Origin: an uncultured Candidatus Saccharibacteria bacterium
GTDB taxonomy: Bacteria > Patescibacteriota > Doudnabacteria > UBA920
Assembly: GCA_964416765.1 (NCBI GenBank)
Contig: CAYQEU010000001.1
Coordinates: forward strand, 212,480-276,479
DNA length: 64,000 nucleotides
Reading direction: 5' to 3'
Numbering within the stretch: position 1 is the stretch's first letter; each line of letters begins with the position of its first letter. The position numbers were made by a program, and so were the translations under genes. The notes under the pieces were generated by a model. The model did not search any database. It was not told the origin of the DNA and was given only the letters and a program-made list of their open reading frames with translations. Shown here one piece after another: positions 45,855 through 61,755 of this stretch.

Positions 45855-45856
45855 TG

Positions 45857-46153: not shown

Positions 46154-46157
46154 TTAG

Positions 46158-47092: not shown

Positions 47093-47602
47093 TCATTTAT
47101 AAACGCATAAGTCCATTACTATTGGGTTAACAACCAAATAAATCTGCCACAACAAGAGAATTGAAAATATTAAAAATAGGGTTACAAAAATCAGTTTTTC
47201 TTTTGACCAACGTTCTTTAGCGATGACTGGATATTTTTGTTTAATAATTTCATGGAACTTGCGGAAGAAGGCCACAAGAATATAGGCAAATCCTAAAAAC
47301 AACAAACTTTTTAGTGCCTGATTGCCGGATGTAGTGTGCGGGACTCCGCAGTAAGATTGGGCAAGAAAAATTAAGAGTGATATTTCCGCAGCAACAAAGA
47401 ATAAGGCCCTTAGTACCACAAATCCGGCCATAAACATTATTATGGCGAGCAATGCTATCAATACCACCCCTTCAGTAATTCCTAGAGCTGCAAGGAAATG
47501 GCTTCCAAAATAACGATACCCAAGAAAAAATAGGCCAGTAATCACTAACGAAAAAGCGGCAGGTAGTATATTTTCTTTGCGAAGCAAAAGCTTTATATTC
47601 AT
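47093..47602 (-). CDS. small polytopic membrane protein (operon gene 5)
   Basis: 169 aa with four TM helices. The start overlaps the upstream stop (ATGA). Confidence 0.5.
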   Translation of the reverse strand: MNIKLLLRKENILPAAFSLVITGLFFLGYRYFGSHFLAALGITEGVVLIALLAIIMFMAGFVVLRALFFVAAEISLLIFLAQSYCGVPHTTSGNQALKSLLFLGFAYILVAFFRKFHEIIKQKYPVIAKERWSKEKLIFVTLFLIFSILLLWQIYLVVNPIVMDLCVYK

Positions 47603-48687
47603 AAAAGGTTATTCTTGAGTTTAACATTTTTCTTATCAGCCTGGACGTATTTTAATAAATCCTCCTCCCGCTCCAAGCCCCTGATCCGACCAGATACAAA
47701 GCCAAGGCGATAATCTATTCCTTCACTCATTAAACGCCAATTAGAGCCTTGTAGAGCTTTTTGGATGGCATTCTTCAAGTCTTTCTTACTGGTGTATTCA
47801 TCTCTGCCTTCTTTACTGTCGACGGCAGTAAAACCGACAACAACATCCTTAGTCATCTGAGGCGGCTGAAATTGCATACTAGTATATCCAGCGGCCTCAA
47901 ATACTGGGGCTAGAATTTTCTGGACTTCACCGAACGGTAGCTTTTTTATTTTGGCTATCGCATCGTATAAATCTTTATTTTTATCTCTTTCTTCCCACTC
48001 TTTGGCAAGCCTGCCCATTTCCATCAAGCGATGATATTCTTCAACGGCTTTATCTCCCTTTTCTTTATCAAAACAAAACCGCTTGCGGTCTTCTTCATAG
48101 TGCTCGTCAGGCTTTTCTTCTTTAATATGCAAGTCTAGAGTTTCGACCTCGGCATTGCCGCAACTATCACAGTTGTAAGTTATGGTAATAACTTCTCCGT
48201 TTCTTTCATCTTGGGAAGACATCTCGTGCTGACACTTTAAACACAAGTGAGGCTTAGTTATATATTCTTCGTTGTCCTCATAAAAAGCCCGTCTAGGCAG
48301 GCACTTATTCGGACAATCGTAGAAGAATAGAACCCGCTCAGATTCACCCTTGATGTCAAGGTGTTTGCTTGTACTACTCATCCCGGAGCCGCATTTCAGG
48401 CATTTTACTCCTCTGGGGGCAATAGCGTTCTCTTCGTGTTCATCTCTGCGACGATCGCGCTCCATCCATTCCCGAATAGTTTCTGGCTTGCGCATATATC
48501 GCTCGGCGCATTCGTAATACAGAGTTAGCTGATGGACAACGTATTGGGCATGCTTTTTATCCTTTTCTTGTCCTTCGTATCTGGACATATCCTGATTTAA
48601 CACAGCATCTTCCGATATTCTACATCGGCTGACAGTTATGGAGTCATAGAGGTCGCTATAATAAATTTCGTCTTTAAGATGCTTCAT
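47599..48687 (-). CDS. hypothetical protein with duplicated C4 zinc-ribbon (operon gene 4)
   Basis: Two paralogous segments: CLKCGSGMSS..(~22 aa)..YDCPNKC and CLKCQHEMSS..(~20 aa)..YNCDSCGN. No catalytic motif recognised. Confidence 0.5.
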   Translation of the reverse strand: MKHLKDEIYYSDLYDSITVSRCRISEDAVLNQDMSRYEGQEKDKKHAQYVVHQLTLYYECAERYMRKPETIREWMERDRRRDEHEENAIAPRGVKCLKCGSGMSSTSKHLDIKGESERVLFFYDCPNKCLPRRAFYEDNEEYITKPHLCLKCQHEMSSQDERNGEVITITYNCDSCGNAEVETLDLHIKEEKPDEHYEEDRKRFCFDKEKGDKAVEEYHRLMEMGRLAKEWEERDKNKDLYDAIAKIKKLPFGEVQKILAPVFEAAGYTSMQFQPPQMTKDVVVGFTAVDSKEGRDEYTSKKDLKNAIQKALQGSNWRLMSEGIDYRLGFVSGRIRGLEREEDLLKYVQADKKNVKLKNNLL

Positions 48688-49829
48688 ACTTTTACATCCT
48701 GCACTTCAATGTTATCACCAAAAAATTCTTGGACAAGTTCGTTATATCGATAGAAGTCTCCTAAGATTTTCATTGCAAGCTCGAGATCTAAACTACCATC
48801 TATTCTAAATAATTTAATTTTACTACATTTTATCTTTGTGTCTTCGGCTCCCGAGCTCCATTTATAAGCTACTCTTCTATTATGTTCTTCGGAAGTGTAG
48901 ACCATTACAGCAGGATCAAAGTGTACAAATTTTTCTATATTTTTATTCCAAAGCATATGAACATACTTATGGAGAATATATTTGTTAGACTTAGCTGGTA
49001 TAATTTCTTCTATCTCAATTGATTTCATACCATCTTTAGTATTACTAATATAAAATTCGGTCCTTATTAGCGAATAGGCGAAGTCTAGTAATGGGTCTTC
49101 TGTGCTTCTTGTGTGAATAGTCACTCCCTTAAAATTAGGGTCGTTCATTCTTCCAATACTAAATTTAGGACCAAACCAATGATCCATTTCTATAAGCTCA
49201 CTAACCTGTAATGTACGTGAAATCCTTATAGGATCCAAAGCTAAACTTAGTTCTAAATTTTTATTTTGAGACACTTCTCGCAAGTAGGCAGTTATCTCAG
49301 TGAAATTGACAGAATGGTATCTACGTAGATAAGGATGGTAGTAAATCCTATACATGTTTTTATATATAATATACTGATTTTCTAAACGAAAGTCGGGAGT
49401 TATTTTTACCAATCCATATCTATCAAATTTTAAATCTGTTATAACATCAGACAAGTTAGATTTTCTTATATCCTTGAAAATAAAATCTTCCTTTTTTGGA
49501 TAAAGACTCCAAAGATCGCTCTCAATTAAATGGCAAGCATATACATCGGGAGAATAATTGCTTTTGCTCACCATGAAGTGAACGACAGGGTTATTTATTT
49601 TCAAAAAATCTTCAACCGCCTCAGTAGTAAGTATGCCGACCTGGGCTCTATACATTTCGATTAAGCATCGTAAATTATAACCAATATCTGATTGGGCTTC
49701 CATATAACGATATATCATCAACGGAAAGATGTTTTCATTAGCCAATTCTTTACACAAAATCAAAAGATAATGCTCAGCTGAGCTGAGCATCTTTTTATCA
49801 TTATCGAATATAAATTTAGCAATATTCAT
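48684..49829 (-). CDS. hypothetical protein (operon gene 3)
   Basis: 381 aa, Tyr/Lys-rich and AT-biased codon usage. No recognisable domain. 4-nt overlap with gene 4. Confidence 0.5.
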   Translation of the reverse strand: MNIAKFIFDNDKKMLSSAEHYLLILCKELANENIFPLMIYRYMEAQSDIGYNLRCLIEMYRAQVGILTTEAVEDFLKINNPVVHFMVSKSNYSPDVYACHLIESDLWSLYPKKEDFIFKDIRKSNLSDVITDLKFDRYGLVKITPDFRLENQYIIYKNMYRIYYHPYLRRYHSVNFTEITAYLREVSQNKNLELSLALDPIRISRTLQVSELIEMDHWFGPKFSIGRMNDPNFKGVTIHTRSTEDPLLDFAYSLIRTEFYISNTKDGMKSIEIEEIIPAKSNKYILHKYVHMLWNKNIEKFVHFDPAVMVYTSEEHNRRVAYKWSSGAEDTKIKCSKIKLFRIDGSLDLELAMKILGDFYRYNELVQEFFGDNIEVQDVKV

Positions 49830-49837
49830 TTTAGCAA

Positions 49838-51196
49838 TTAAAAAGGTATATCATCTACAGAAACTTCTTTTTCAACTACCGGCATTAGGTCTTCTGCCTC
49901 TAGCCCCTCTAGCAACAAATTTGTATCTGCCTGTGGCAATTCTTGGACTGTTTTTAACTTTTTCTCAATAGTTCTAGATTTTTTAGCCGCATCTTCAATA
50001 GTATTACTTGCTTCACTCAACTTCTTTTGCGTTTTTTCTAAGATATCTCCAAATCTTCCAAACTCTGTCTTTACAGCTCCCAAAATTGACCAAACTTCTC
50101 CAGAACGTTTTTGAATAGCCAAAGTTCTAAAGCCCATTTGCAAACTATTTAACAGCGCACCTAAAGTCAAAGGGCTAGTAACTATTACTCTGCATTCTCG
50201 CTGGAGCATCTCGCATAATCCCGGCCTTCTGGCAACTTCTGCGTATAAGCTTTCATAAGGTAAAAATAGTATGCCGAAATCAGTGGTATGAGGAGGATTA
50301 ATATACTTATCTCTTATGGATCGTGCCTCTGTTTTGATTCTGATTTCTAGTTGTTTAGAAGCTGCTTCCACTAAATCGGCATCTGCATTTTCATAAGCTT
50401 CTACGAGTCTTTGATAATCTTCTTGCGGAAATTTAGCATCAATAGGCAACCAAATTGGTTGCTTTGAATCATCGGGTCCAGGCAGTTTAATAGCAAATTC
50501 AACACGTTCGTTGCTTCTAGGTTTAGTAGCAACATTTTTATCATATTGCTCAGGATTTAAAATTTGTTCCAAAAGCGAACCTAACTGAACTTCACCCCAT
50601 ATACCCCTAGTTTTTACGTTTGTTAAAACTTTCTTTAAGTCTCCAACACCTAAAGCAAGGTTCTGCATTTCTCCCAAACCTTTATGGACCAATTCCAATC
50701 TGTCGCTTACTAATTTAAATGAGTCTCCAAGTCTGCGTTCTAAGGTAGCGTGCAATTTTTCGTCTACGGTCGCACGCATTTTTTCTAACTTTTCCTCATT
50801 GCCTTTTTGTAGTGAATCTAGCTTTTTCTCAACCACATCTTTTACTTGATCCAGCTTCTTTTCACTCTTATCTGTCAGTCCGGTAATTGTTTTGGATAGA
50901 GCATCAAAGTTCTTATTTTGAGCTTCCGCAAATTCAAAATTTCTTTTATCTACCGAGTCTCCAAAAGTTTTAATGGTATTTGCTAATTCTTCTCTCGTTA
51001 TTTTATTGTTATTCGCTAGCTCGGTCCTATTAGTAGAAAACTCTTCTTTGACCGTTTTTTCGATGCGCTCGATAGTCTTATCAATGCTTGCATTAATACT
51101 TTGCTCAGGGTCAGTATTTTTACTTGCGTTTTTTATGACCAAATAAATAATAAGCCCTTCTAGCAAAACGGTAATAACAAGTAAAATAAGTATCAT
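49838..51196 (-). CDS. rmuC: RmuC-family DNA recombination protein (operon gene 2)
   Basis: N-terminal TM, long coiled coil, and the RmuC signature RGIWGEVQLGSLLEQIL (compare E. coli RmuC ..GNWGEVQLERvLE..). Confidence 0.7.
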   Translation of the reverse strand: MILILLVITVLLEGLIIYLVIKNASKNTDPEQSINASIDKTIERIEKTVKEEFSTNRTELANNNKITREELANTIKTFGDSVDKRNFEFAEAQNKNFDALSKTITGLTDKSEKKLDQVKDVVEKKLDSLQKGNEEKLEKMRATVDEKLHATLERRLGDSFKLVSDRLELVHKGLGEMQNLALGVGDLKKVLTNVKTRGIWGEVQLGSLLEQILNPEQYDKNVATKPRSNERVEFAIKLPGPDDSKQPIWLPIDAKFPQEDYQRLVEAYENADADLVEAASKQLEIRIKTEARSIRDKYINPPHTTDFGILFLPYESLYAEVARRPGLCEMLQRECRVIVTSPLTLGALLNSLQMGFRTLAIQKRSGEVWSILGAVKTEFGRFGDILEKTQKKLSEASNTIEDAAKKSRTIEKKLKTVQELPQADTNLLLEGLEAEDLMPVVEKEVSVDDIPF

Positions 51197-51222
51197 ATAT
51201 TTAACTTAATTAGTTTGAAAGA

Positions 51223-54200
51223 TTAAAGAATAGGTTTAATATTCATTTCATCCAATTTTTTCCATAAACTATCCAGAGCTTTTTCCTTGTTTCGATAAAA
51301 AGCACTACCCGTAACACGCCAGAACTCCCAGCCAGCTCTGCGTAATTGCCTTTCTCTTACTTGATCTTCTTCCCAATTCTCTAAAGTATGATATTGGTCA
51401 CCATCGCATTCTACCGCCAATCTAGATTCTTCACCCTGAACAACTAAATCAATTCTATACCCAATTACCGGATATTCAGGTAAGACCTGATATCCTTTAT
51501 CAATCAATAAGTTGCCAACATCAACGGAAAATTGAGAAGCCCTACCAGCGTCAAATTCTTTCTTAAGTGCTTCACGTCCAGCATGCAGTTCTTCTTTCTT
51601 TGGGTCATAGAACCAGTTCAATATCTTATATCTCCAATCATTTTGATTACCCAATGATTCCAAAGGTAAGGAATGGAATAAGAACATCTGATCACGAGCT
51701 CTCGAGGCGGCAACGTTAAATCTACGTTTTGCGTCTTCATTAGTTAACGGTGCTACCGTATCATTTTTGTCATTCGGATTTAAGGCGCGAACCATAGACA
51801 ATAGCATTACATCACGCTCATCGCCTTGAAACTTATAAGCATCACCACACTGAATCTGTCTTTCTTCAATTTCTTTTTCAGTAAGTACGCCTTGAACTAC
51901 GAGATTTCTTATTAACTTTTCAATGTATTTAGCCTGATCTTCAGCTAACAGAGAGATTATTCCAAAAGTGCACAATCGGCCATCGGGACGTTTCTGATAT
52001 TTTGGGTCTTTAAGACACTCCACTAATTTGTTTATAATTGCTTCTGCTTCGGGCTCGTTAACTTTGTTATTAGTATTTTGGTAGCCTTTTTCAATAAACA
52101 CCGGAACCAGTGCAGGCTTTAGTAAGCCCTTAGGATTAGGATAACGCAATGGTTTAAGCTTGCCCTCGTAAATATGGTGATTACTAAATGCAATGATTTC
52201 AGGAACGCATCGGAAGTGTTCATTAAGCTGAATAATATTAGATAGTCTAATTTTGGCTAAATCAAACAAACTAGAAGTAATGGAAAAGCTATCTTTGAAT
52301 GGAATATCAAATAAAAATCTAGAAATTAGCTCAAATATCCTTTCCTGATCTTGAAATATACCTGCGGGGCTTATTTGCTCAGGATCACCTACTACCAAGA
52401 GCTTCTTGCCTAAATACCCAATTGTTAAACCTCGGATATCGCATTGACTTGCTTCATCAAATATCACCACATCAAATAAACCAGGTTTAGGTTCTGCAAA
52501 CATTTGCGCCGCCCGATGCAAAGGCATGATCCAGACAGGTACAGCATTCTTGGCTTCTTTTAGAGCCTCTTGAGCTGCTCTTAAATGTGTAACCGCATAT
52601 TTGCCAGTACCTTTTCCATATTTTTTCATTTCATGCGACCAAGCCATTAAAGCGTCGCGCTGCGGTTTTGTAACCTTATCAATCTGTCTTTGCCAGGCGA
52701 GAACAGTAACCAGTTCTGAATTTAACTGGTATTCCTTTTTCGTAAGTCGTTCAAATCTATTTTGCAATTCGTCAATATCAATATGATCATGGATAGTATC
52801 CAACCATGATTCTAGTCTTGCTATTTTCCATGCCAGTTCTAAATTTTTAGGATAATTTAATTTTTTATGATGTTCTGCAAGTTCTTTTAGGTCAGAAAAA
52901 AGGTTGGGAGCAACTTTAGAAATTCTTGAAGAAATCTCCTTAAGCTTTATGGATTGATTTCTATTCTCATGAATAATGTTCAATTCTTCAAAGGATGCTT
53001 TCCATCCAGATGAACTCCTTTTTTGCAGAGCATCAATTAAGTTTTTAACTATCGGGTGCTTAGTTTTATCATTTACGGAATCTTGTAATTTTAGGGTCCA
53101 TCCGGAAAACAATTTTTCTAACTCGATAAGTTCAAATTTTGCTACTGTGGAAGTAATGATAGCTATGATCCTTTCTATATCAGTAGGACTGGTAAAAGAT
53201 AAGTCCGATAGTTCTTTCGTTTTCTGGCAAAAAGAGTTTATGCTAGCGTATTCATCGGTATAATTTACTATTCTATGCAGACTGGCACATAGTACTTCAA
53301 GTTTTACGATATCTACCAATATATCAAAATCGGGAGATGATTTAAGACCGGAAAAACTCTGTTCAAGTAAAAGTTCAATTTCCTTTTGTGCTTTGATGGC
53401 CTGTACGTAATGGCGGAACAGTTCAACACTTTCCTTTTCAGTAGGTGCACTTCCATTCACCGTGTAAGTTTCTAAGACTTTTTTAGCGATTGAGGGTAAG
53501 AGGATTTTATTTAAAGTAGTTATCTTTCCTCCATTTTTAACTTTTTCAAGTAAAGCATTTACTGCCTTATTTAGATCATTAATAGAAAGTTGCGTTTTAC
53601 CCTCAACTTCGTGACCTAATAAGGCATTGTGACAAGTGCCGATTAAACTTATTTTTTCGGAAATTTTCTCAATTACTGTCCGCCATTTTTCCTTTTCGTG
53701 AGTACTCGAAGCACAAAGATTAAAAATTTCTAACTCATATCCCTCACGAATCGAGTTTAGTAATTTCTTAGCATCTAGCAATTTATTCCATACGCTGGTT
53801 AATTCTGCTGGTTCAAATTCCAGGTTTTTATGATTGAATACTTCGCTAGAGGTTTGAGCTTTATTAGAAAGATCCCTATACGAAGCAAAGGCTTGTAATA
53901 CAGCTTCTTCGTCAGGTAACGTAGATAGCGGGGGTAATTCGTATTTATATAAATCTCTATCCTCTCGGGTTAAATGAGATAATAGTTCATGGCACGCAAC
54001 TATATCTTGATCCGTAAAATCAAGCTCTATCTTAAAATCTATATTATCAGTGAACCAATCAATATCGCCAGTTTTCCTATGTTTATTTACCAGCTGCGCC
54101 GCGTCAATTGGTTTAATGACTTCGTTACCAATATTTATTTCTGCAGTTGAGTCAGTGAGAATATAATGTCGTATCTGATTGGCTAGGTCTGCCTTTTCTG

Positions 54201-55842
54201 CTCGAACATCTTTTAGCTCCTTTCTAAAACGTTCCGCACGTTCCTCGCTAAATTTTGTGTGCCGCTCTCCTAAGTTTGAGCTTATTTCGCTAATTGATTG
54301 CTGGAGAACATCATCTCTCTTTGCAGTTTGGTGAAGTTGAGACACTGCCAAGCTACGAATATTTTCTGGTAGCTTATCTCTTAATACTTCTAGAGCCTTA
54401 CTTGTTTGGGAGGTAACTAAAACCGTCTTACCTTGCGCTAAGAAGCGGGATATTAGATTGGCAATCGTATGACTTTTACCAGTTCCGGGTGGACCTTTAA
54501 CTACAACACCATAATTTGAATCTAAACGTTCGGCAATTCTTTTTTGTTCATCATTCCACGGCAATGGGAAAAAGAGTTCTGATTCAGTAATTGACTTTTG
54601 TGCGGATCCGTCGGAAGATCCACTTTTGGTCTGTTCTTCATAGTCCCCAATAAGATCTTTGATAAACTCGGTGGGCTCAATATCACTTTGTTCTATATCT
54701 CTACGAATAAGTCCGGCGTATTTCGACCACAAGTCATTATTACGCTTACGTGCAAAAATAACTGGGGCATTCCAAATGGCTGGTACTTCTGTCAGCTCAG
54801 GAGCAGTTACCATTTGGTCAGTAAATTTATCTTCGCTATCGGTTGATATGTAATTGATTAGTGTTCTGCTTTGAGTTTTCAGAGATTGCAGATGCCAGAA
54901 ATCGAAAGGATTTGCATTAATTGCATCGGTCCAAGCAATAAGATCCATTTCCGCAGGATTATCCATTTCATACAGAGGAGACGTTTCTACAAATCCTCTA
55001 AACATCGTATCTGCAGAAATCTCAATGACTCGCTTGGAAGCATCAAAGTCAATTGTTAATGGAGTTAGGAAAACAGGAGCGTATATTGCACCCACAGACT
55101 TACTTTGCCACGTAAGAAGACCTTGACCCAACAGAAGCTCATAACTATCACCTTCATTTTTTAGCAATAGTCTTAGCGCATATAATTGATCGTATAAGAG
55201 GTTTGCTTTATAAACCTTTTTAACCTTATTTGCCCAAGGCTCCCAATCGTTTTTAATATAACCCTTTAATAATTTCTCGAGCTCAGGATGATCATTCCAA
55301 TGATCTTCTAGGTACTGAAGTTCAATATGCTCTGGTAAACTCTGTGGGTTGACGGTAACCCAATCTTCCAATATTTTAGGAATTCTTTGACCCTGCTCAT
55401 AGCTCTTTTTAAAATTTTTAAATTCGCTGATCCTATTTTTGTCTTGATCAAAACTTATTTGGCGATCTATTTTTTCTTTAGGCTTTGGCTGTGTAAGTGG
55501 TGTAACTTCTTCAATCCATTCTTCTAAAGCTTTTGGTAATACTGGCGCGCTCTTGATGTTCTTTTTCTCTACACGTAACCAAGCAGCAGACGAAGGGAGA
55601 ACCTCGGTATTACTTTCAGTTTCAAACGGCCTAATAGATAAGTTCTCCACATCTAATGGAAAATCAGCCAACCACCATGGAGATGGTGGGGTTGCAACAT
55701 TTCTAAAATCTCGGACTACTGCATCATCAAGAGATAAAGCCTTTTCTAAGTAAGTAAATAATCTTACTATCTTATTTCCCTGATCACTTATACTTTTAAC
55801 AGTAGGACCTTTTTGTTCTGTAAGAGGTACCTTATCGGACAT
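51223..55842 (-). CDS. 1539-aa SF1 helicase (Upf1/DNA2-like AAA_11/AAA_12) with N-terminal DUF4011-like region and C-terminal DUF559/Vsr-like PD-(D/E)xK endonuclease domain
   Basis: Walker A VVKGPPGTGKSHTIANL. Motif II VVIFDEASQ. Motif III LLVVGDPEQ. Motif VI FNVAASRARDQMFLFHS. C-terminal IGYRIDLVVQGEESRLAVECDGDQYH resembles the DUF559/Vsr nuclease module. Confidence 0.8.
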   Translation of the reverse strand: MSDKVPLTEQKGPTVKSISDQGNKIVRLFTYLEKALSLDDAVVRDFRNVATPPSPWWLADFPLDVENLSIRPFETESNTEVLPSSAAWLRVEKKNIKSAPVLPKALEEWIEEVTPLTQPKPKEKIDRQISFDQDKNRISEFKNFKKSYEQGQRIPKILEDWVTVNPQSLPEHIELQYLEDHWNDHPELEKLLKGYIKNDWEPWANKVKKVYKANLLYDQLYALRLLLKNEGDSYELLLGQGLLTWQSKSVGAIYAPVFLTPLTIDFDASKRVIEISADTMFRGFVETSPLYEMDNPAEMDLIAWTDAINANPFDFWHLQSLKTQSRTLINYISTDSEDKFTDQMVTAPELTEVPAIWNAPVIFARKRNNDLWSKYAGLIRRDIEQSDIEPTEFIKDLIGDYEEQTKSGSSDGSAQKSITESELFFPLPWNDEQKRIAERLDSNYGVVVKGPPGTGKSHTIANLISRFLAQGKTVLVTSQTSKALEVLRDKLPENIRSLAVSQLHQTAKRDDVLQQSISEISSNLGERHTKFSEERAERFRKELKDVRAEKADLANQIRHYILTDSTAEINIGNEVIKPIDAAQLVNKHRKTGDIDWFTDNIDFKIELDFTDQDIVACHELLSHLTREDRDLYKYELPPLSTLPDEEAVLQAFASYRDLSNKAQTSSEVFNHKNLEFEPAELTSVWNKLLDAKKLLNSIREGYELEIFNLCASSTHEKEKWRTVIEKISEKISLIGTCHNALLGHEVEGKTQLSINDLNKAVNALLEKVKNGGKITTLNKILLPSIAKKVLETYTVNGSAPTEKESVELFRHYVQAIKAQKEIELLLEQSFSGLKSSPDFDILVDIVKLEVLCASLHRIVNYTDEYASINSFCQKTKELSDLSFTSPTDIERIIAIITSTVAKFELIELEKLFSGWTLKLQDSVNDKTKHPIVKNLIDALQKRSSSGWKASFEELNIIHENRNQSIKLKEISSRISKVAPNLFSDLKELAEHHKKLNYPKNLELAWKIARLESWLDTIHDHIDIDELQNRFERLTKKEYQLNSELVTVLAWQRQIDKVTKPQRDALMAWSHEMKKYGKGTGKYAVTHLRAAQEALKEAKNAVPVWIMPLHRAAQMFAEPKPGLFDVVIFDEASQCDIRGLTIGYLGKKLLVVGDPEQISPAGIFQDQERIFELISRFLFDIPFKDSFSITSSLFDLAKIRLSNIIQLNEHFRCVPEIIAFSNHHIYEGKLKPLRYPNPKGLLKPALVPVFIEKGYQNTNNKVNEPEAEAIINKLVECLKDPKYQKRPDGRLCTFGIISLLAEDQAKYIEKLIRNLVVQGVLTEKEIEERQIQCGDAYKFQGDERDVMLLSMVRALNPNDKNDTVAPLTNEDAKRRFNVAASRARDQMFLFHSLPLESLGNQNDWRYKILNWFYDPKKEELHAGREALKKEFDAGRASQFSVDVGNLLIDKGYQVLPEYPVIGYRIDLVVQGEESRLAVECDGDQYHTLENWEEDQVRERQLRRAGWEFWRVTGSAFYRNKEKALDSLWKKLDEMNIKPIL

Positions 55843-55952
55843 AACGAATTTTGCGTTGGTAAATATGCCTTATTTTAGCATTTTTTATTCAATGTTTACA
55901 AAGGATAGACGTTCATAATCTATCCAAAAAGAATTTAGATTTTCTTTAACTT

Positions 55953-56594
55953 TTATTTATTTACGACCCATTCAGCTGGTAGATAACCAGAAAGACCTAC
56001 TTTATCTTTATCAACGTCGTTAACTCCAGCGAGAATCCTCACTCTTCGGTACGGAAAACTTTTATCAATGAGCTGTACTTTTGATCCGTTGCCTACACAA
56101 AATGCACCGGGAATTTCTAAAAGGCCTAGAAAATCTTTGGCTGCAAGAGCCTTGCCGATAGCTTCAGCGTCATCTTTAGTTTTACCAAGACAGATATTTT
56201 GATCAGTGCCGTCGTATCCCGGAATACGAAGATAACCTTGATCACCAACTTTCATACTTTCCCAATCCCCACCGGTTGCAGCGGTAGTAGCAGGTTGATT
56301 ACCATTTTGAATTTCTGCGGACTTTTGTCGGGCACTATCTTTTGAGCTGCTGGCTATACCAATAACAATTGGCAGTCCAAACAATAAAAGTAGTGCGGTT
56401 AATACTTTATGCCTGCTGAACCAGTTTCTTAAATCACTCTGACACTGGGGACACTTCTTGGCCGTGGCATTGATTTCTGATTTGCAATGCGGACACACCT
56501 TAGTTGCTTGCATTCTTGTAGCATGGTCTTTCCGGCAAACGGATAAACAAAAGGGGCTACCCGCTTGCCTGACAGCCCCTTTCGGAACTGCCAA
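55953..56594 (-). CDS. Zn-ribbon membrane protein (N-terminal CPHC..CPQC, one TM, extracytoplasmic domain)
   Basis: CPHCKSEINATAKKCPQCQ then a TM (VLTALLLLFGLPIVIGIA). The start is ambiguous between M1 at 56594 and M28 at 56513. Confidence 0.45.
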   Translation of the reverse strand: MAVPKGAVRQAGSPFCLSVCRKDHATRMQATKVCPHCKSEINATAKKCPQCQSDLRNWFSRHKVLTALLLLFGLPIVIGIASSSKDSARQKSAEIQNGNQPATTAATGGDWESMKVGDQGYLRIPGYDGTDQNICLGKTKDDAEAIGKALAAKDFLGLLEIPGAFCVGNGSKVQLIDKSFPYRRVRILAGVNDVDKDKVGLSGYLPAEWVVNK

Positions 56595-57057: not shown

Positions 57058-58341
57058 ATGGCAACGAATAAGTTGCAAATCCAGCAAGTTAGTATTGGAC
57101 TGCTTAAGCCCGCGCTTTATAACCCGAGGAAACACACGCCTCAGGCTATGGAGCAATTAAAAGCATCGATTAAGAGGTTCGGGTTAGTCGATCCCATTAT
57201 CGCCAATGGTGCTGCAAGCAGAAAGAATATTGTCATAGGAGGACACTTTAGACTGAAAGCTGCTAAAGAACTTGGATATAAACAAGTTCCGGTAGTTTAC
57301 TTAAACATTCCAAATGTTAAAAAAGAAACTGAATTAAATCTTCGGCTCAACCGCAATACGGGAGAATGGGATTTCGAGCTACTCAAGTCCTTCGATATGG
57401 ATCTGCTGCTGGATGTCGGCTTTGATGATACCAACCTTTCAAGTATTTGGAATGATACGCTGCAAACTGAGGATGATGAATTCGACGTTGAAAAAGAATT
57501 AAAGAAAACCAAGAAACCGAAAACCAAACCGGGCGAAATCTACCAGCTCGGCAGCCATAGATTAATCTGCGGCGATTCAACAAACGTAGATGTTGTAAAA
57601 ATCTTACTTGGCAAAAATCAGGCTGACATGGTTTACTGCGATCCGCCTTTCAATATTTCTCTGGACTACGACAAAGGCATCGGCAACAATGTTGGCAAAT
57701 ACGGCGGAATTCATACCAATGATAACCGGACGGATTTGGAATATCGCAAGTTCCTCAAAGCAACAATGGAAAATGGCTTAGCAGTTTCCAAGAAAAATTT
57801 ACACATATTCTACTTCTCCGACGAAACCTACATCGGTATGATCCAATCTTTATTTGCAGAATTAGGCCTGCAAAATCGTAGGGTTTGTATGTGGGTAAAG
57901 AATAACCAAAACCCTACACCGCAAATTGCTTTCAACAAGGTCTATGAACCAGTAACCTATGCGACCCGAGGCAATCCATACCTCGCTAAGATCGTGACTA
58001 ATCTTAACGAGATTTTGAATAAGGAGGTAGGTACTGGCAACCGTGTCCATGACGATATTTTAGACCTCTTTAATATCTGGCTCGCCAAGCGCAAAGCCGG
58101 ACAAGATTACAACCACCCAACCGAGAAACCGCCAACGCTTCATGAGAAAGCTTTGCGCCGTTGCACTAAACCTGGCAATTTAGTCTTAGATTTATTCGGC
58201 GGTAGTGGATCAACTTTGGTTGCGTGCGAGCAGCTCAAGCGCAAGTGCTTCTTGGTAGAATTCGAACCGATCTTTTGCGATCTGATTATTAAGCGTTTTG
58301 AAAAGCTAACGGGCATTAAAGCCAAGAAGTATGAAAACTAA
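57058..58341 (+). CDS. ParB-like nuclease domain fused to DNA N6-adenine/N4-cytosine methyltransferase (beta-class)
   Basis: ParB/Srx box IVIGGHFRLKAAKELG. MTase motif IV VYCDPPFN precedes motif I DLFGGSGST. Confidence 0.8.
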   Translation: MATNKLQIQQVSIGLLKPALYNPRKHTPQAMEQLKASIKRFGLVDPIIANGAASRKNIVIGGHFRLKAAKELGYKQVPVVYLNIPNVKKETELNLRLNRNTGEWDFELLKSFDMDLLLDVGFDDTNLSSIWNDTLQTEDDEFDVEKELKKTKKPKTKPGEIYQLGSHRLICGDSTNVDVVKILLGKNQADMVYCDPPFNISLDYDKGIGNNVGKYGGIHTNDNRTDLEYRKFLKATMENGLAVSKKNLHIFYFSDETYIGMIQSLFAELGLQNRRVCMWVKNNQNPTPQIAFNKVYEPVTYATRGNPYLAKIVTNLNEILNKEVGTGNRVHDDILDLFNIWLAKRKAGQDYNHPTEKPPTLHEKALRRCTKPGNLVLDLFGGSGSTLVACEQLKRKCFLVEFEPIFCDLIIKRFEKLTGIKAKKYEN

Positions 58342-58747
58342 GCAGCAAAAACAACTGCTTCTAGAGCAGCTCAAGAAAACGCCAATTGTTCAGGTTGCCT
58401 GTGAAAAGACTGGGGTCGGCAGGGCAACCTACTATCGCTGGATGAAAGATGATAAAGCCTTTGCCAAAGAGGCCGAAGAAGCCTTGCAAGCTGGAAGTCT
58501 CATGGTCAACGATATGGCTGAAAGCCAGCTTATGGCAGCCATTCGGGATAAAAATATGACGGCAATTATCTTTTGGCTGAAACACCATCATCCGACCTAC
58601 GGCACGAGAATAGAAATAAACGGACACTTAAAAACTTCTTTTGAAGAATTAACACCAGAGCAAGAAGCCTTAGTCCGTAAGGCTTTGAGGCTCGCAGCCT
58701 TGGATACTAATACCTATGATAATGGAAACACAAAACATACTCCCTGA
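58331..58747 (+). CDS. terminase small subunit-like HTH protein
   Basis: N-terminal HTH (VACEKTGVGRATYYRW). 138 aa. Overlaps the TerL start. Confidence 0.45.
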   Translation: MKTKQQKQLLLEQLKKTPIVQVACEKTGVGRATYYRWMKDDKAFAKEAEEALQAGSLMVNDMAESQLMAAIRDKNMTAIIFWLKHHHPTYGTRIEINGHLKTSFEELTPEQEALVRKALRLAALDTNTYDNGNTKHTP

Positions 58748-60233
58748 CCTCATTACTAAGATCATCAAGGACAAAGCAGTCAGAATTCAGGTAACTACAC
58801 AAAGCCACTTTTGGTTTTTCAACGTCTACTTTAGCGATTACGTAAGATATCAGACTGCCCCTTTCCAGCGAGAAATGTTTGCACTGAGCGAAGACGAAAC
58901 GATAAAAAATTTGGTTGTAGTGGCATTTCGCGGGTCTGGCAAAACCACCATATTTAATCAATCGTATCCGCTTTGGGCGATCCTCGGAAAACAACAGAAG
59001 AAATTCGTTCTTATACTTGCCGAGACTATGAATCAAGCCCGGCAAATATTAAAAAATATCAAGGAAGTTTTAGAAACCAATGACTTGCTTCGCAGAGACT
59101 TAGGGCCGTTCACTGAGGAGGAAACGAGGAACTCATCTACCATTAACTTCCTCAATTACAAAGCCAAAATTATGGTTGCTTCCAAAGAAAGCAGCATTCG
59201 CGGTATTAAGCACGGAGCACATCGGCCAGATTTGATCATCCTCGACGATATTGAAGATATTAATTCTGTTAAAACCCGCGAATCGAGAAACAACACATAT
59301 ACCTGGCTGACTGGAGATGTAATGCCGCTCGGCGACCCAAAGACTCGCCTGATCTTTATTGGTAATCTTCTGCATGAAGACTCACTCTTAATGCGGCTTA
59401 AAAATGGCATAGATGAAGGTAAGCTACGGGGTCAATATCGGCTATACCCTTTGGTGCAAGATGACAAAATTTTATGGCCCGGCATGTACCCAACAATGGA
59501 CGATATCGAGCAGTTGAGATTAAGCCAGGGAAACGAAATTGCATTCCAACGCGAGTACATGCTTAGAATTATTCCGGATGAAGACTGGGTAGTACAACCT
59601 GAGTGGATACAATACTACGACGTACTGCCAGACAGCAAATACCATGACTACACCTGTATTGGCATCGACCTTGCTATTTCAGAAAAAGAAGCTGCTGATT
59701 ATACTGCCATGGTACCGGCATTGGTAACCGGCAACAGAGATAATTTGAAAGTTTTTATCTTGCCCATGATTATTAACAAACGGCTAACGTTCTTAGAAAC
59801 ACAGGAGGAAGCAAAAAATCTCTCTATGGGTATTGGGAGCGGCAGGCGTGCAAAAATCTATGTCGAAGATGTTGCGTATCAGCGGGCATTCATCCAAGCG
59901 ATACACGCTGCCGGATTTCCTGTAAAAGGCGTTTCAGTGCACGGCCAAGACAAACGCGCAAGGCTTAATGCCAATGTATACCTTGTCCAAGCTGGCAAAG
60001 TTTTCTTTCCGACAAAAGGTGCAGAACTTCTAATCCAGCAACTCGTTCATTTTGGCGTGGAAAAGCATGATGACTTAGCAGACGCTTTTGGCATACTGCT
60101 ATCCAAAATCATTGAGGAAGATAACAAGGGAGGTATGGTCATAACTGGAACTTCGTACAGAAACCGATCGGACTGGAATACGCTCAACAGCAGGCAAAAA
60201 CATATGTTACAGGAAAGACACGGGGGTTATTAG
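58716..60233 (+). CDS. phage terminase large subunit (Terminase_6-like)
   Basis: ATPase P-loop VVAFRGSGKTT. Walker B LIILDDIEDI. C-terminal RNaseH-like nuclease acidic residues (VEDVAY.., HDDLADAF). Confidence 0.75.
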   Translation: MIMETQNILPDLITKIIKDKAVRIQVTTQSHFWFFNVYFSDYVRYQTAPFQREMFALSEDETIKNLVVVAFRGSGKTTIFNQSYPLWAILGKQQKKFVLILAETMNQARQILKNIKEVLETNDLLRRDLGPFTEEETRNSSTINFLNYKAKIMVASKESSIRGIKHGAHRPDLIILDDIEDINSVKTRESRNNTYTWLTGDVMPLGDPKTRLIFIGNLLHEDSLLMRLKNGIDEGKLRGQYRLYPLVQDDKILWPGMYPTMDDIEQLRLSQGNEIAFQREYMLRIIPDEDWVVQPEWIQYYDVLPDSKYHDYTCIGIDLAISEKEAADYTAMVPALVTGNRDNLKVFILPMIINKRLTFLETQEEAKNLSMGIGSGRRAKIYVEDVAYQRAFIQAIHAAGFPVKGVSVHGQDKRARLNANVYLVQAGKVFFPTKGAELLIQQLVHFGVEKHDDLADAFGILLSKIIEEDNKGGMVITGTSYRNRSDWNTLNSRQKHMLQERHGGY

Positions 60234-60415
60234 AGCCTAAAAAGTTACCAACAGGGCGTCCTGGACGCATCAAGAGGGTTCTGGCATCAATATACCGTAA
60301 GGAAAATTAACAATTCTTGCGGTAAGACCGCTGACAATAAGGCAAAACAGCGGATAGAGCGTGTAATATCACCTTTCCTAAACCTTTTTAGGCATGGAAG
60401 CAAAACCTTCCAGAG

Positions 60416-61723
60416 ATGCGCCGCAAGCCCAAAACAATGGAATTAGTACCAACCCAAACCAAATATTGCCTGTATGCTCGTAAGAGTACTGAGGACTCTT
60501 CCGAAAAACAGGCTTTGTCCATAGATTCTCAGGTCAAAGAAATGCTGGCTATTGCCGAGCGCGAAAATCTAGATGTCATAGACATTCGCCGCGAAGCCCA
60601 TTCGGCTAAGGATTCAGGACAGCGGCCAGTATTCCGCGAGCTATTATCGGATATTCGAAGCGGCAGGTTTAATGGTATTTTGACGTGGGCGCCGGATCGA
60701 CTGAGCCGTAATGCCGGAGACTTAGGGTCGGTGGTCGATTTAATGGATGAGAAGCTGCTAGTGGAAATAAAGACGTACGGCCAAACATTTAAGAATTCAC
60801 CGAACGAAAAGTTTTTACTGATGATTCTTTGCAGTCAAGCGAAACTAGAAAACGATAACAAGAGTATTAATGTAAAAAGAGGTTTGAGGACAAGATGCGA
60901 AATGGGATTATGGCCAGCCCCTGCGCCCATGGGTTACTTAAACGAAAAGAAAGTTGATAGAAAAGGCTATTTGATAATTGATCAAGAGCGTGCGCCAATT
61001 ATCAAACAAATGTTTGAAAAAGTAGCTTACGAAAAATGGAGCGGCCGCAAACTTTATCATTGGCTGAAGTTCGACCTTAATTTTAAAACTCCATTAGGCA
61101 ATAAAGGGTTAACCTTAAGCAATATTTACATAATTCTTCAAAATACTTTTTATTATGGCGATTTTGAGTTTCCCAGAAAAAGCGGTATCTGGTACAAAGG
61201 CAAGCACGAACCAATAATTAGTAAGGAACTGTTTGGCTTAGTTCAAGAACAAGTCAGGACGAATGTTATAAGGGTGGAAGACAAAGAATTTGCTTTTACA
61301 AAACTAATGACCTGCGGTTTATGCGGTTCGGGTGTTTCAGCTGATGAGAAATTCAAGAAGCAGAAAAACGGAAATATTCACCGCTATATCTATTACGGCT
61401 GCACGAAATCCCGAGACAAACACTGCAAAAGTGGGTATATTTCTGAAGATGATTTAATCACACAACTAGAAAAACTAGTGGATAAAGTTGACTTCAGCGA
61501 AGCAGATATTAAAGAGAAAATAAAGCATGAGGTAACGCGCTTCAAAAAGTTCCAGCAGTATGTAATTGGCGCAAAAGAAAAAATAGTTATCGGGAATATT
61601 GATATTCAAAACTATACGAAGTTTATTTTTAGGGAGGGTAGCAATACCGAGAAACGTGAACTGCTTACTTGTTTTAAAAACGATATACAAATTAATAGCA
61701 AGGAGGTTATCTTAGTCCAATAA
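60416..61723 (+). CDS. large serine recombinase (integrase/resolvase family)
   Basis: Catalytic motif YARKSTEDS..Q, recombinase domain, and Zn-ribbon CGLCGSG..YYGC. 435 aa. Confidence 0.8.
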   Translation: MRRKPKTMELVPTQTKYCLYARKSTEDSSEKQALSIDSQVKEMLAIAERENLDVIDIRREAHSAKDSGQRPVFRELLSDIRSGRFNGILTWAPDRLSRNAGDLGSVVDLMDEKLLVEIKTYGQTFKNSPNEKFLLMILCSQAKLENDNKSINVKRGLRTRCEMGLWPAPAPMGYLNEKKVDRKGYLIIDQERAPIIKQMFEKVAYEKWSGRKLYHWLKFDLNFKTPLGNKGLTLSNIYIILQNTFYYGDFEFPRKSGIWYKGKHEPIISKELFGLVQEQVRTNVIRVEDKEFAFTKLMTCGLCGSGVSADEKFKKQKNGNIHRYIYYGCTKSRDKHCKSGYISEDDLITQLEKLVDKVDFSEADIKEKIKHEVTRFKKFQQYVIGAKEKIVIGNIDIQNYTKFIFREGSNTEKRELLTCFKNDIQINSKEVILVQ

Positions 61724-61755
61724 GCGCATTATATTTTATAATCAACTACCTAATC

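What the first reader, a model, noticed from the sequence alone, without database searches (positions are those of the whole stretch)
51223..55842. Giant Upf1-like helicase fused to a DUF559/Vsr-type endonuclease
All SF1 helicase motifs are present (GPPGTGKSHT, DEASQ, VVGDPEQ, VAASRARD). The last ~100 aa carry the acidic IDLVV..AVECDGDQYH signature of the DUF559/very-short-patch-repair-like nuclease fold. The ~440-aa N-terminal region resembles the DUF4011 extension. This architecture is an NTP-driven translocase delivering a nuclease, as in several anti-phage effectors.
Basis: partly seen in the sequence, partly recalled or inferred. Interest (0 to 1): 0.7.

Follow-up and report, generated by a model that had tools for sequence, protein, structure and literature searches.

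The report
Mobile-island helicase fused to Vsr-type nuclease
A 1,539-residue protein joining an Upf1-type motor to a Vsr-type DNA-cutting domain sits on a horizontally acquired island. It belongs to a large uncharacterised sister family of known anti-phage helicase-nucleases, so it is a plausible but fairly ordinary defence gene with a few unusual details.

Summary

- **Helicase:** the core is Upf1-like SF1. Pfam finds AAA_11 and AAA_12, and Foldseek's top hits are Senataxin, Upf1, Dna2 and IGHMBP2.
- **Nuclease:** the last ~95 residues match Pfam REase_MTES_1575 (E=6e-28), a Vsr-family nuclease. DUF559 just passes its cut-off. The equivalents of Vsr D51 and H69 (D1465, H1485) are invariant in 45 homologues.
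- **Family placement:** the protein scores far below NCBI's cut-offs for Hhe (153 vs 2000 bits) and ProA (258 vs 1500). It represents a distinct family with thousands of generically named members.
- **Context:** the gene lies in a 36-38% GC island inside a ~50% GC chromosome. A serine recombinase, a ParB-methylase and terminase-like genes lie nearby and recur in related loci.
- **Downstream gene:** in 11 of 17 close relatives the next same-strand gene encodes a predicted nuclease from a varying family; here it is RmuC.

Defence function is inferred, not shown. Verdict: new variant of a known kind, moderate interest.

The parts
51223..55842 (-). Whole helicase-nuclease ORF, 1,539 aa
   Evidence: ORF list and translation; full-length homologues at 62-73% identity.
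54643..55842 (-). N-terminal domain (res 1-~400): family-specific, mixed alpha/beta with a 48-residue helix (186-233). No Pfam model and no solved structural relative.
54163..54567 (-). Helicase domain 1A, first part (res 426-560): Walker A GPPGTGKS and motif Ia
   Evidence: AAA_11, AAA_30 and AAA_19 hits at 430-559. K456 is invariant.
52543..54162 (-). All-helical insertion of ~540 residues (res 561-1100) splitting domain 1A. It is the least conserved part; its last 100 residues are better conserved.
   Evidence: DSSP of the model shows only long helices. Mean identity to homologues is 0.20 for 561-1000 and 0.41 for 1001-1100. No credible Pfam hit (only three chance-level matches at E 0.06-0.22).
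51643..52542 (-). Helicase 1A second part plus domain 2A (res 1101-1400): motifs II DEASQ, III GDPEQ, IV HFRC, V QGDERD, VI VAASRAR
   Evidence: AAA_12 at 1190-1388. Foldseek matches to Upf1, Sen1, Dna2 and IGHMBP2. The motif residues checked are invariant.
51247..51534 (-). C-terminal Vsr/DUF559-family nuclease domain (res 1437-1532) with the D1465...E1478-C-D1480-G-D1482...H1485 signature
   Evidence: Pfam MTES_1575 E=6e-28 and DUF559 above its cut-off. The model has an alpha-beta-beta-beta-alpha-beta core. Profile hits 3hrl. hhalign register with Vsr D51/H69. It is the most conserved region, at 0.60 identity.
55872..55901 (-). Promoter-like site (TTGTAA-18-TAAAAT, with an extended -10 TG) 30 nt upstream of the ATG
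   Evidence: Consensus scan only; not evidence of function.
49838..51196 (-). RmuC-family predicted nuclease (452 aa: N-terminal hydrophobic helix, coiled coil, RmuC domain), 26 bp downstream on the same strand. It is either a partner or a separate Shield-like defence gene.
   Evidence: Pfam RmuC E=8e-74. No terminator-like site lies between the two genes. The downstream nuclease position recurs in relatives.
47093..49829 (-). Three tightly packed downstream ORFs (381 aa, 362 aa with CxxC pairs, 169 aa membrane) with an 8-bp gap and 4-bp overlaps. They may share an operon with RmuC and the helicase.
   Evidence: Coordinates. No Pfam, PADLOC or NCBIfam hit. No homologue in any related locus. 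A terminator-like site lies at 46913-46932.
57058..61723 (+). Mobile-element module next to the gene: ParB_N-N6/N4 methyltransferase, small 138-aa ORF, terminase-large-like ORF, large serine recombinase
   Evidence: Homologues of these genes flank helicase relatives in L004, L008, L020, L026, L120, L121, L123 and L124.

Best explanation
The gene encodes a single-chain, ATP-driven SF1B (Upf1-like) translocase/helicase covalently coupled to a Vsr/DUF559-family (REase_MTES_1575) Mg-dependent endonuclease. It is cargo of a horizontally acquired, serine-recombinase-type integrative element.

Its most likely role is defence against invading DNA (phage or plasmid), in the manner of the validated helicase-Vsr proteins Hhe and ProA. 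The proposed sequence of events is:
1. The family-specific N-terminal domain and the long helical insertion keep the enzyme inactive or confer target recognition.
2. Once engaged, the motor tracks along nucleic acid.
3. The C-terminal nuclease then nicks or cuts the DNA.

Shown here: the domain composition, intact catalytic motifs in both enzymatic modules, purifying selection on them, the mobile-island location and the cross-phylum spread. Inferred: the defence role, the direction of translocation, the substrate and the regulatory role of the N-terminal domain and insertion.
For: - **Domains:** Pfam AAA_11, AAA_12 and MTES_1575.
- **Structure:** matches to Senataxin, Upf1, Dna2 and IGHMBP2.
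- **Nuclease active site:** the residues align with Vsr D51/H69 and are invariant.
- **Conservation:** the nuclease is the most conserved region, at 0.60 identity across 45 homologues.
- **Nearest curated models:** all are anti-phage: PADLOC PDC-S37 4.7e-67, Hhe 6e-36, MkoC and MkoA; NCBIfam ProA 2e-76 and Hhe 5e-45.
- **Experimental precedent:** Hhe protects against lambda, T3, T7 and PhiV-1, and a point mutation (E1731A) at its putative nuclease active site abolishes protection.
- **Island:** 36-38% GC against a ~50% GC chromosome that carries dnaX, recJ, PBP genes and ddl.
- **Horizontal spread:** relatives at 58-73% identity occur in Levybacteria, Woesebacteria, Omnitrophota and Bacteriovoracaceae, and a 36% relative in Paceibacteria. 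About 30% relatives lie on 510 plasmid records.
- **Neighbours in related loci:** serine recombinases, ParB-methylases, AbiEii, HEPN_AbiU2, a LexA-like repressor, a type I restriction R subunit and PDC-S02.
Against: - No experiment exists for this family.
- The protein scores far below the curated cut-offs for Hhe (153 vs 2000 bits) and ProA (258 vs 1500).
- The PDC-S37 match covers only profile positions 248-1341 of 1550.
- Its N-terminal 385 residues are unrelated to any of these models.
- Full-length identity of 62-73% among members from very different lineages is high for a defence protein. It could instead reflect an element-intrinsic function.
- The steady linkage to ParB-methylase, terminase-like and recombinase genes fits a role in the element's own life cycle equally well.
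- The closest structural relatives (Senataxin, Upf1, IGHMBP2) act on RNA, so the substrate is uncertain.
Confidence: 0.6

Rival explanations
1. The helicase-nuclease is only the constant half of a two-gene (or larger) cassette. The gene immediately downstream supplies a second, interchangeable nuclease effector: RmuC here, and DUF2130, DUF2779/Cas4-like, PDDEXK_1 or YhcG elsewhere. The two act together, for example with the helicase as sensor/translocase and the partner as the main DNA degrader. This refines the defence reading rather than excluding it.
For: - In 17 independent loci of the close clade (>=58% identity), 11 have a same-strand predicted nuclease gene within -4 to +116 bp of the helicase stop. 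These are RmuC (window), DUF2130 (L013, L014, L119), DUF2779 (L007, L018, L123, L124), PDDEXK_1/Cas4-like (L010, L012) and DUF1016/YhcG_C (L122).
- In the 10 Pfam-annotated loci, 7 of 10 downstream neighbours are nucleases against 1 of 10 upstream neighbours (Fisher p=0.02).
- RmuC, DUF2130 and Vsr/DUF559 all belong to the PD-(D/E)XK superfamily.
- An RmuC at 48% identity also lies 2.6 kb from a distant helicase relative (L098).
- No terminator-like site lies between the helicase and RmuC.
Against: - 6 of 17 loci lack such a neighbour.
- The partner families are not homologous to each other beyond the fold.
- RmuC alone is a sufficient defence protein in Shield, whose accessory genes lie downstream of it. 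That matches RmuC plus the two orphan ORFs here.
- The YhcG neighbour is itself a stand-alone PADLOC candidate, PDC-S02.
- Defence genes cluster anyway, so adjacency may reflect an insertion hotspot.
Confidence: 0.35
2. The protein serves the mobile element itself, in replication, packaging, processing of the excised element or competition with rival elements, rather than defending the host.
For: - It recurs with large serine recombinase, ParB_N-methyltransferase, a small HTH ORF (homologous to the window's 138-aa ORF; possibly a small terminase) and terminase-large-like genes across relatives from 36% to 70% identity.
- Sequence conservation is high.
- tRNA genes lie next to several elements.
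- 25 relatives occur on IMG/VR viral contigs.
Against: - Gene order and the side of the helicase on which these genes sit vary between loci.
- Several close relatives have no recombinase or methylase within the 5-10 kb flanks examined (L119, L122, L001).
- No full-length relative exists in 50,697 deposited phage genomes.
- The nearest characterised homologues are defence proteins.
Confidence: 0.15
3. It acts on RNA or RNA:DNA hybrids (R-loops, transcripts of invaders) like Senataxin or Upf1, with the nuclease cutting the DNA strand of hybrids.
For: The top structural matches are the RNA or R-loop helicases SETX/Sen1, Upf1 and IGHMBP2. PADLOC also hits the Mokosh helicases MkoA and MkoC.
Against: Dna2, a DNA helicase-nuclease, matches equally well. 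The Upf1-like core does not discriminate between substrates. The Vsr/DUF559 fold is a DNA endonuclease in every characterised case.
Confidence: 0.1
4. It is a housekeeping DNA-repair enzyme: a Vsr-like mismatch nickase coupled to a repair helicase.
For: The Vsr-fold nuclease and an SF1 helicase are both classical repair modules. JGI's automatic name for relatives is 'very-short-patch-repair endonuclease'.
Against: The gene sits in a low-GC island with mobile-element genes. Its distribution is patchy and cross-phylum, and includes plasmids. Vsr F62 and H64 are replaced by E1478 and D1480, the DUF559-type site. No cytosine methylase partner of the Dcm type lies adjacent.
Confidence: 0.05

Closest known systems
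Hhe (Gao et al. 2020 single-gene anti-phage system; NCBIfam NF042953; PADLOC PDLC02194)
   Same: It is a giant single polypeptide with an SF1 AAA_11/AAA_12 helicase followed by a Vsr-family nuclease. The homology from residue ~1000 to the C-terminus is significant (E 5e-45 and 6e-36). A point mutation at Hhe's putative nuclease active site abolishes its anti-phage activity.
   Different: The score is 153 bits against a 2000-bit cut-off. There is no DUF4011 N-terminal domain and no DUF3320/wHTH tail. The N-terminal 1,000 residues do not align to the Hhe model.
ProA anti-phage protein (NCBIfam NF058533)
   Same: This is the best curated full-length-type match: residues 386-1533 align to profile positions 604-1706 of 1903, E=2e-76. 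The helicase-insertion-nuclease order is the same.
   Different: The score is 258 bits against a 1500-bit cut-off. The first ~600 and last ~200 profile positions have no counterpart. I could not find the source paper, so ProA's mechanism is unknown to me.
PADLOC candidate PDC-S37
   Same: This is the best PADLOC hit (E=4.7e-67, residues 384-1533). It is listed as a single-gene candidate system.
   Different: Only profile positions 248-1341 of 1550 are matched, and the N-terminal domain is not covered. PDC-S37 is a prediction with no publication that I could find.
MTES_1575-type proteins (Anantharaman et al. 2013, PMC3710099)
   Same: They define the REase_MTES_1575 'novel Vsr REase' domain and note its fusion to SF-I helicases in conflict systems. 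The nuclease domain here is a clear member (E=6e-28).
   Different: The prototype also carries HEPN, transglutaminase and two wHTH domains, all absent here.
E. coli Vsr and the DUF559 structure 3hrl
   Same: They share the fold and the core catalytic Asp and His: D1465 aligns with D51 and H1485 with H69.
   Different: The sequence similarity is weak (hhalign E=0.0024, probability 12%). Acidic E1478 and D1480 replace Vsr F62 and H64. This nuclease is not a stand-alone mismatch enzyme.
Dna2, AddAB/RecBCD, and Mokosh MkoA/MkoC
   Same: All couple a helicase to a nuclease. Dna2 is an Upf1-like SF1B helicase fused to a PD-(D/E)xK nuclease and is among the top structural hits.
   Different: In Dna2 the nuclease is N-terminal and of the RecB type. 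Mokosh uses a PLD nuclease (from my own knowledge). The similarity is confined to the helicase core.
Shield (ShdA RmuC-domain defence, PMC10270631), for the neighbouring gene
   Same: The downstream gene has an N-terminal hydrophobic helix plus an RmuC domain and is followed by domain-less ORFs. This resembles ShdA with its downstream accessory genes.
   Different: Shield was reported only in Pseudomonas. PADLOC matched only an RT-associated RmuC model.

Membership tests
Hhe anti-phage protein | Reaches the NCBIfam equivalog cut-off (2000 bits) over the full length | tested here: not met
   153.4 bits; only residues ~1002-1534 align.
Hhe anti-phage protein | N-terminal DUF4011 domain | tested here: not met
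   No Pfam hit in residues 1-441 at E<=1. None of 27 family representatives hits DUF4011.
Hhe anti-phage protein | SF1 helicase followed by a Vsr-family nuclease | tested here: met
   AAA_11, AAA_12 and MTES_1575.
ProA anti-phage protein (NF058533) | Reaches the equivalog cut-off (1500 bits) | tested here: not met
   257.6 bits, profile positions 604-1706 of 1903. The same holds for seven of the nine relatives tested, at 207-278 bits; the close relative P0001 scores 257.0 and the most distant one, L110, only 88.
PADLOC PDC-S37 | Full-length match to the PDC-S37 HMM | tested here: inconclusive
   E=4.7e-67, but only profile positions 248-1341 of 1550 are matched. No curated cut-off is given.
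Upf1-like (SF1B) helicases | Motifs I, Ia, II, III, IV, V and VI present and conserved | tested here: met
   GPPGTGKS, DEASQ, GDPEQ, HFRC, QGDERD and VAASRAR. The motif residues checked are invariant, apart from S457 at 87%.
Upf1-like (SF1B) helicases | RecA-like 1A/2A core superposes on Upf1-family structures | tested here: met
   Foldseek E 2e-11 to 6e-08 to SETX, Upf1, Dna2, Sen1, IGHMBP2 and ZNFX1. The model has pLDDT 79.
Upf1-like (SF1B) helicases | 5'-to-3' ATP-dependent translocation | not testable with these tools
   Requires biochemistry.
Vsr / DUF559 / REase_MTES_1575 branch of PD-(D/E)xK nucleases | Passes the Pfam gathering cut-offs | tested here: met
   MTES_1575 scores 97.2 bits against 38.2. 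DUF559 scores 20.9 (23.0 for the C-terminal fragment) against 20.6.
Vsr / DUF559 / REase_MTES_1575 branch of PD-(D/E)xK nucleases | Catalytic Asp (Vsr D51) and His (Vsr H69) equivalents conserved | tested here: met
   hhalign places D1465 on D51 and H1485 on H69 (E=0.0024, low probability). The 3hrl alignment gives the same register. Both residues are 100% conserved in 45 homologues.
Vsr / DUF559 / REase_MTES_1575 branch of PD-(D/E)xK nucleases | Alpha-beta-beta-beta-alpha-beta core fold | tested here: met
   DSSP of the model gives H1437-1448, E1452-1459, E1462-1469, E1474-1480, H1487-1502, E1507-1511. No stand-alone structural superposition of the domain could be run.
Vsr / DUF559 / REase_MTES_1575 branch of PD-(D/E)xK nucleases | Metal-dependent endonuclease activity | not testable with these tools
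   Requires biochemistry.
Anti-phage defence system (general) | Protects a host against phage when expressed | not testable with these tools
   No member of this family has been tested, as far as my searches show.
Anti-phage defence system (general) | Located in variable, mobile or defence-rich neighbourhoods | tested here: met
   Low-GC island. Recombinase, ParB-methylase, AbiEii, HEPN_AbiU2, restriction and PDC-S02 neighbours occur in related loci.
Shield (for the neighbouring RmuC gene) | ShdA-type protein: N-terminal transmembrane helix plus RmuC domain | tested here: inconclusive
   RmuC domain E=8e-74 and a hydrophobic N-terminus. No ShdA sequence was available for comparison.

The most novel reading that the evidence does not exclude
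The helicase-Vsr protein may be the invariant core of an undescribed modular defence cassette. Its second gene would be a swappable nuclease (RmuC, DUF2130, DUF2779/Cas4-like, PDDEXK_1 or YhcG). Its N-terminal domain, which has no solved structural relative, would be a new sensor module. The cassette would be spread across CPR and other phyla by a family of serine-recombinase/ParB-methylase elements that also carry LOOT RNA leaders.
Probability: 0.25. Interest if true: 0.6.

Novelty: new variant of a known kind. Interest (0 to 1): 0.4.

Why it matters
Helicase-nuclease fusions are an established class of prokaryotic immune effector. This family nevertheless has thousands of members, including cultured Bacillaceae and many candidate-phyla bacteria, and all carry only generic names such as 'AAA domain-containing protein'. 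No curated defence model captures it.

Showing that the family protects cells would close an annotation gap. It would also give a tractable system for asking how a Upf1-like motor is gated by an unknown N-terminal domain and a 540-residue helical insertion.

The recurrent but family-variable nuclease gene downstream, if functional, would be a clear case of effector swapping around a fixed helicase-nuclease core.

Tried and rejected
- **DUF4011 identity of the N-terminus: rejected.** There is no Pfam hit at E<=1 and none in 27 relatives. A plasmid 'DUF3320 domain-containing' relative fetched as a possible DUF4011 reference also lacked it, so no profile-profile or structural test against a real DUF4011 could be made.
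- **Single-sequence PDB search with the nuclease domain:** nothing significant. Only the family profile reached 3hrl weakly.
- **Exact-sequence look-up of the protein:** not on record.
- **Genome-collection scan:** only 6 loci, and the host genome was not among them.
- **Upstream 213-aa zinc-ribbon ORF:** I tested whether it is a split-off version of the N-terminal zinc-ribbon extension seen in ~1,600-aa homologues. It looks unrelated (by eye, no formal comparison): a Zn-ribbon plus transmembrane protein sitting behind a LOOT RNA.
- **Homology between RmuC and DUF2130 partners:** none by BLASTP.
- **Literature for ProA and PDC-S37:** none found.
- **Full prophage:** considered and not supported. 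Only terminase-like and ParB-methylase genes are present, followed directly by a recombinase.

Full report
**1. Observation**

Window 51223..55842 on the minus strand is a single ATG-initiated ORF of 1,539 codons.
- GPPGTGKSHT at residues 450-459
- DEASQ at 1129-1133
- VVGDPEQ at 1150-1156
- VAASRARD at 1377-1384
- IDLVV...AVECDGDQYH at 1464-1485

The ORF is real. A search of 5.8 billion proteins returned more than 3,000 matches at E<=1e-10, and the best 120 are 62-73% identical over 98-100% of the length (one truncated entry, P0110, covers 91%).

**2. Anatomy**

*Domain hits.* Pfam finds REase_MTES_1575 at 1438-1530 (E=5.9e-28, 97 bits against a 38-bit cut-off). It finds AAA_12 at 1190-1388 and AAA_11/AAA_30/AAA_19 at 430-559. 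DUF559 is marginal, at 20.9 bits against 20.6, rising to 23.0 when only the C-terminal third is scanned.

*Helicase core.* An AlphaFold model of residues 381-1539, built on 46 sequences, has mean pLDDT 79. Foldseek against PDB ranks Senataxin, Upf1, Dna2, Sen1, IGHMBP2, ZNFX1, Aquarius and nsp13 first, at E from 2e-11 to 1e-06. The core is therefore a Upf1-like SF1B helicase.

*Helical insertion.* Helicase domain 1A is interrupted between motif Ia and motif II by about 540 residues (561-1100). The model shows these as long helices only. This is the least conserved part of the protein, at 0.20 mean identity.

*Nuclease domain.*
- The model has the alpha-beta-beta-beta-alpha-beta order of the restriction-endonuclease fold.
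- A profile of 15 family nuclease domains finds the DUF559 crystal structure 3hrl as its best PDB sequence hit (E=0.054, correct register).
- hhalign against E. coli Vsr gives a weak alignment (E=0.0024, probability 12%). It places D1465 on Vsr D51, C1479 on T63, D1480 on H64 and H1485 on H69.
- D1465, E1478, C1479 and H1485 are invariant, and D1480 and D1482 are 98% conserved, in 45 homologues. Thirty-five of those share only about 30% overall identity with the window protein.
- The nuclease is the best conserved region of all, at 0.60 identity.
- Walker A K456, the DE of motif II, Q1133 and the motif V and VI arginines are also invariant.

Both enzymatic modules thus look active and under selection.

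**3. The N-terminal region is not DUF4011**

- Residues 1-441 give no Pfam hit even at E<=1.
- An exhaustive HMMER search of 1.84 billion cluster representatives with residues 1-430 found 671 clusters at E<=0.001. In all but a few of the long (1,400-1,900 aa) hits the domain lies within the first ~450 residues.
- Of 27 diverse full-length representatives, none hits DUF4011, while 26 hit MTES_1575 and all 27 hit AAA_11 and AAA_12.
- The NCBI Hhe model, which includes DUF4011, aligns only from residue ~1002. The ProA model aligns from residue 386.
- The N-terminal domain models confidently (pLDDT 83.7, pTM 0.71).
- The viral model library gives one marginal hit to another 'AAA domain protein'.

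At sequence level the DUF4011 claim is refuted. At fold level it could not be tested, because no DUF4011 reference was obtained and the AlphaFold database library was unavailable.

**4. Relation to known systems**

The nearest curated models are all anti-phage:
- PADLOC PDC-S37: E=4.7e-67, residues 384-1533 against profile positions 248-1341 of 1550
- PADLOC Hhe (6e-36), MkoC and MkoA
- NCBIfam ProA: 257.6 bits against a 1500-bit cut-off
- NCBIfam Hhe: 153.4 bits against a 2000-bit cut-off

Seven of the nine relatives tested score similarly below threshold against ProA (207-278 bits), from the close relative P0001 to 28% identity; the most distant one, L110, which lacks the nuclease domain, scores only 88. 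This is therefore a separate family, not a divergent member of Hhe or ProA.

The helicase-plus-Vsr-REase architecture itself was described in 2013, when the MTES_1575 REase was defined (PMC3710099). Hhe is reported to protect against lambda, T3, T7 and PhiV-1, and a point mutation (E1731A) at its putative nuclease active site abolishes protection (bioRxiv 10.1101/2022.06.16.496414).

Members of the wider family carry variable tails after the nuclease: DUF3320, Mrr_N, GreA/GreB C-terminal domain, sigma-70 region 4 or Z-alpha. The window protein ends nine residues after the nuclease domain.

Sources name the family only 'AAA domain-containing protein' or, from JGI's pipeline, 'very-short-patch-repair endonuclease'.

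**5. Genomic context**

*The island.* Positions 1-44 kb encode housekeeping proteins (DnaX, RecJ, phosphoglycerate mutase, PBPs, Ddl, DinB) at about 50% GC. From about 45 kb the GC content falls, reaching 36-38% across 48-56 kb.

*Genes around the helicase.*
- Downstream on the same strand lie RmuC (26-bp gap), two orphan ORFs and a small membrane ORF. They are separated by an 8-bp gap and two 4-bp overlaps.
- No terminator-like site occurs before 46.9 kb.
- Upstream and divergent are a ParB_N-N6/N4 methyltransferase, a 138-aa ORF, a terminase-large-like ORF and a large serine recombinase.

*The same genes recur next to helicase relatives.*
- L008 (helicase 70% identical) has the methylase (62% identity), the 138-aa ORF (60%) and two terminase-like genes (53%).
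- L004 (Paceibacteria, helicase 36%) has two recombinases (69% and 51%), the methylase and the small ORF.
- L020 and L026 have recombinases at 61-67% identity.
- L120, L121, L123 and L124 have recombinase and/or ParB-methylase genes.

*Distribution.* Close relatives (58-73% identity) occur in Levybacteria, Woesebacteria, Omnitrophota and Bacteriovoracaceae assemblies, and a 36% relative in Paceibacteria. More distant ones occur in Bacillaceae, on 510 plasmid records and on 25 IMG/VR contigs. No full-length relative exists in deposited phage genomes.

The gene is thus cargo of a horizontally moving element family.

**6. A recurrent downstream nuclease gene**

I counted 17 independent loci of the close clade that have downstream sequence. 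In 11, the next same-strand gene starts between -4 and +116 bp of the helicase stop and encodes a predicted nuclease:

| Partner family | Loci |
|---|---|
| RmuC | window |
| DUF2130 | L013, L014, L119 |
| DUF2779 (N-terminus hits Cas4 models; domain overlaps an RNase_H_2 hit) | L007, L018, L123, L124 |
| PDDEXK_1 / Cas4-like | L010, L012 |
| DUF1016 / YhcG_C | L122 |

In the ten loci with Pfam-annotated neighbours, 7 of 10 downstream neighbours are nucleases against 1 of 10 upstream neighbours (Fisher p=0.02). RmuC, DUF2130 and Vsr/DUF559 are all listed as PD-(D/E)XK families (PMC3424549).

This pattern suggests a two-gene cassette with a swappable effector. It is not decisive, for four reasons:
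- Six loci lack such a gene.
- The YhcG neighbour is itself the stand-alone PADLOC candidate PDC-S02.
- RmuC-domain proteins are sufficient defence effectors in the Shield system.
- Shield's accessory genes lie downstream of shdA (PMC10270631). That is the arrangement of RmuC and the two orphan ORFs here.

**7. Mechanism**

The best-supported reading is a single-chain, ATP-driven SF1B translocase that delivers a Vsr-type endonuclease to invading DNA. It would be carried as defence cargo by an integrative element. The N-terminal domain and the helical insertion would act as recognition or autoinhibitory modules.

- *Shown:* domain identities, intact and conserved catalytic residues, island location and horizontal spread.
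- *Inferred:* the defence role, substrate, polarity and regulation.

The rivals are:
- a two-gene system with the downstream nuclease (a refinement of the main reading)
- a function for the element itself
- an RNA or R-loop substrate, as suggested by the Senataxin and Upf1 structural hits
- housekeeping repair, which is unlikely given the island and the patchy distribution

**8. Novelty and verdict**

The kind of protein (helicase fused to a Vsr-family nuclease, used in conflict systems) is known and experimentally validated in Hhe. This protein fails the membership tests for Hhe and ProA. It has a different N-terminal domain with no solved structural relative, and it lacks the usual wHTH tail. 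It belongs to a very large family that no curated model names.

The most novel reading still open is the modular helicase-plus-swappable-nuclease cassette. I give it about 25% probability.

**9. Noticed on the way**

Two Rfam LOOT RNAs in the window, and LOOT copies in five related loci, each sit at a fixed distance upstream of a small membrane-protein gene. This may be of more interest than the finding itself. See the list of things noticed in passing.

Noticed in passing
window 56571-56698 (-) and 63227-63350 (+); also L004 18800-18924, L007 3399-3519, L008 7664-7790, L120 9106-9233, L123 12237-12354: Rfam LOOT RNA (RF03000, classed as an sRNA of unknown function) scores above its gathering cut-off twice in the window. 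The two copies are in inverted orientation and flank the ParB-methylase/terminase-like/recombinase block. LOOT also occurs in 5 of 17 other close-clade loci, but in none of 8 distant-clade loci covering 147 kb.
   Followed up: partly
window 56513 (start of the Zn-ribbon/TM ORF) relative to the LOOT end at 56571; the same in L004, L007, L008, L120, L123: In 6 of 7 LOOT copies an ATG ORF starts 44-62 nt (five of them at 54-62 nt) downstream on the same strand. It encodes a small membrane protein, often with an N-terminal CxxC...CxxC zinc ribbon. LOOT has a TATAAT upstream and ends in a GC hairpin plus U-tract. This looks like a cis-acting leader/attenuator or a fixed sRNA-membrane-protein module rather than a free-standing sRNA.
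   Followed up: partly
window 47093-51196 (-): RmuC (transmembrane helix, coiled coil, RmuC domain) is followed by two tightly packed ORFs (381 aa and 362 aa) with no hit in Pfam, PADLOC or NCBIfam and no homologue in any related locus. A 169-aa membrane ORF follows. The layout resembles Shield (ShdA plus downstream accessory genes), which has so far been reported only in Pseudomonas.
   Followed up: partly
window 57058-61723 (+); L008 12617-18218; L004 15798-21142: A conserved block of ParB_N-N6/N4 methyltransferase, a ~130-190-aa ORF (its L008 homologue carries an HTH_Tnp_1_2 hit) and a terminase-large-like gene (duplicated in L008) travels with large serine recombinases, without other phage structural genes nearby. 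It may be a satellite-like or degraded prophage element.
   Followed up: partly
window ~45000-64000: Low-GC island (36-44% GC) within a ~50% GC chromosome that carries dnaX, recJ, PBP genes, ddl and dinB. No tRNA gene lies in the window, and the right-hand end of the island is beyond the window.
   Followed up: partly
L092-L098 and L100 (IMG/VR contigs): In a distant clade of the helicase family (29% identity; L095, the one member scanned, has a GreA/GreB C-terminal-like tail), a 104-139-aa ORF abuts the helicase start (4-nt overlap in seven loci, 3-nt gap in L098) and is conserved in eight loci. This is a different possible two-gene arrangement.
   Followed up: no
L024 12456-13973; compare PMC10250203: One relative (38% identity) is followed by a B12-binding radical SAM gene. 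[quoted passage not shown]
   Followed up: no
L002 17774-17872 (-); L016 7094-7897: A DUF3800-V RNA motif lies near one helicase relative, and a DUF3800 protein gene lies directly downstream of another.
   Followed up: no
P0005, P0067, P0110 and other ~1,600-aa homologues: Many close homologues carry an extra ~70-90-residue N-terminal extension with a CxxC...CxxC zinc ribbon. The window protein lacks it.
   Followed up: no
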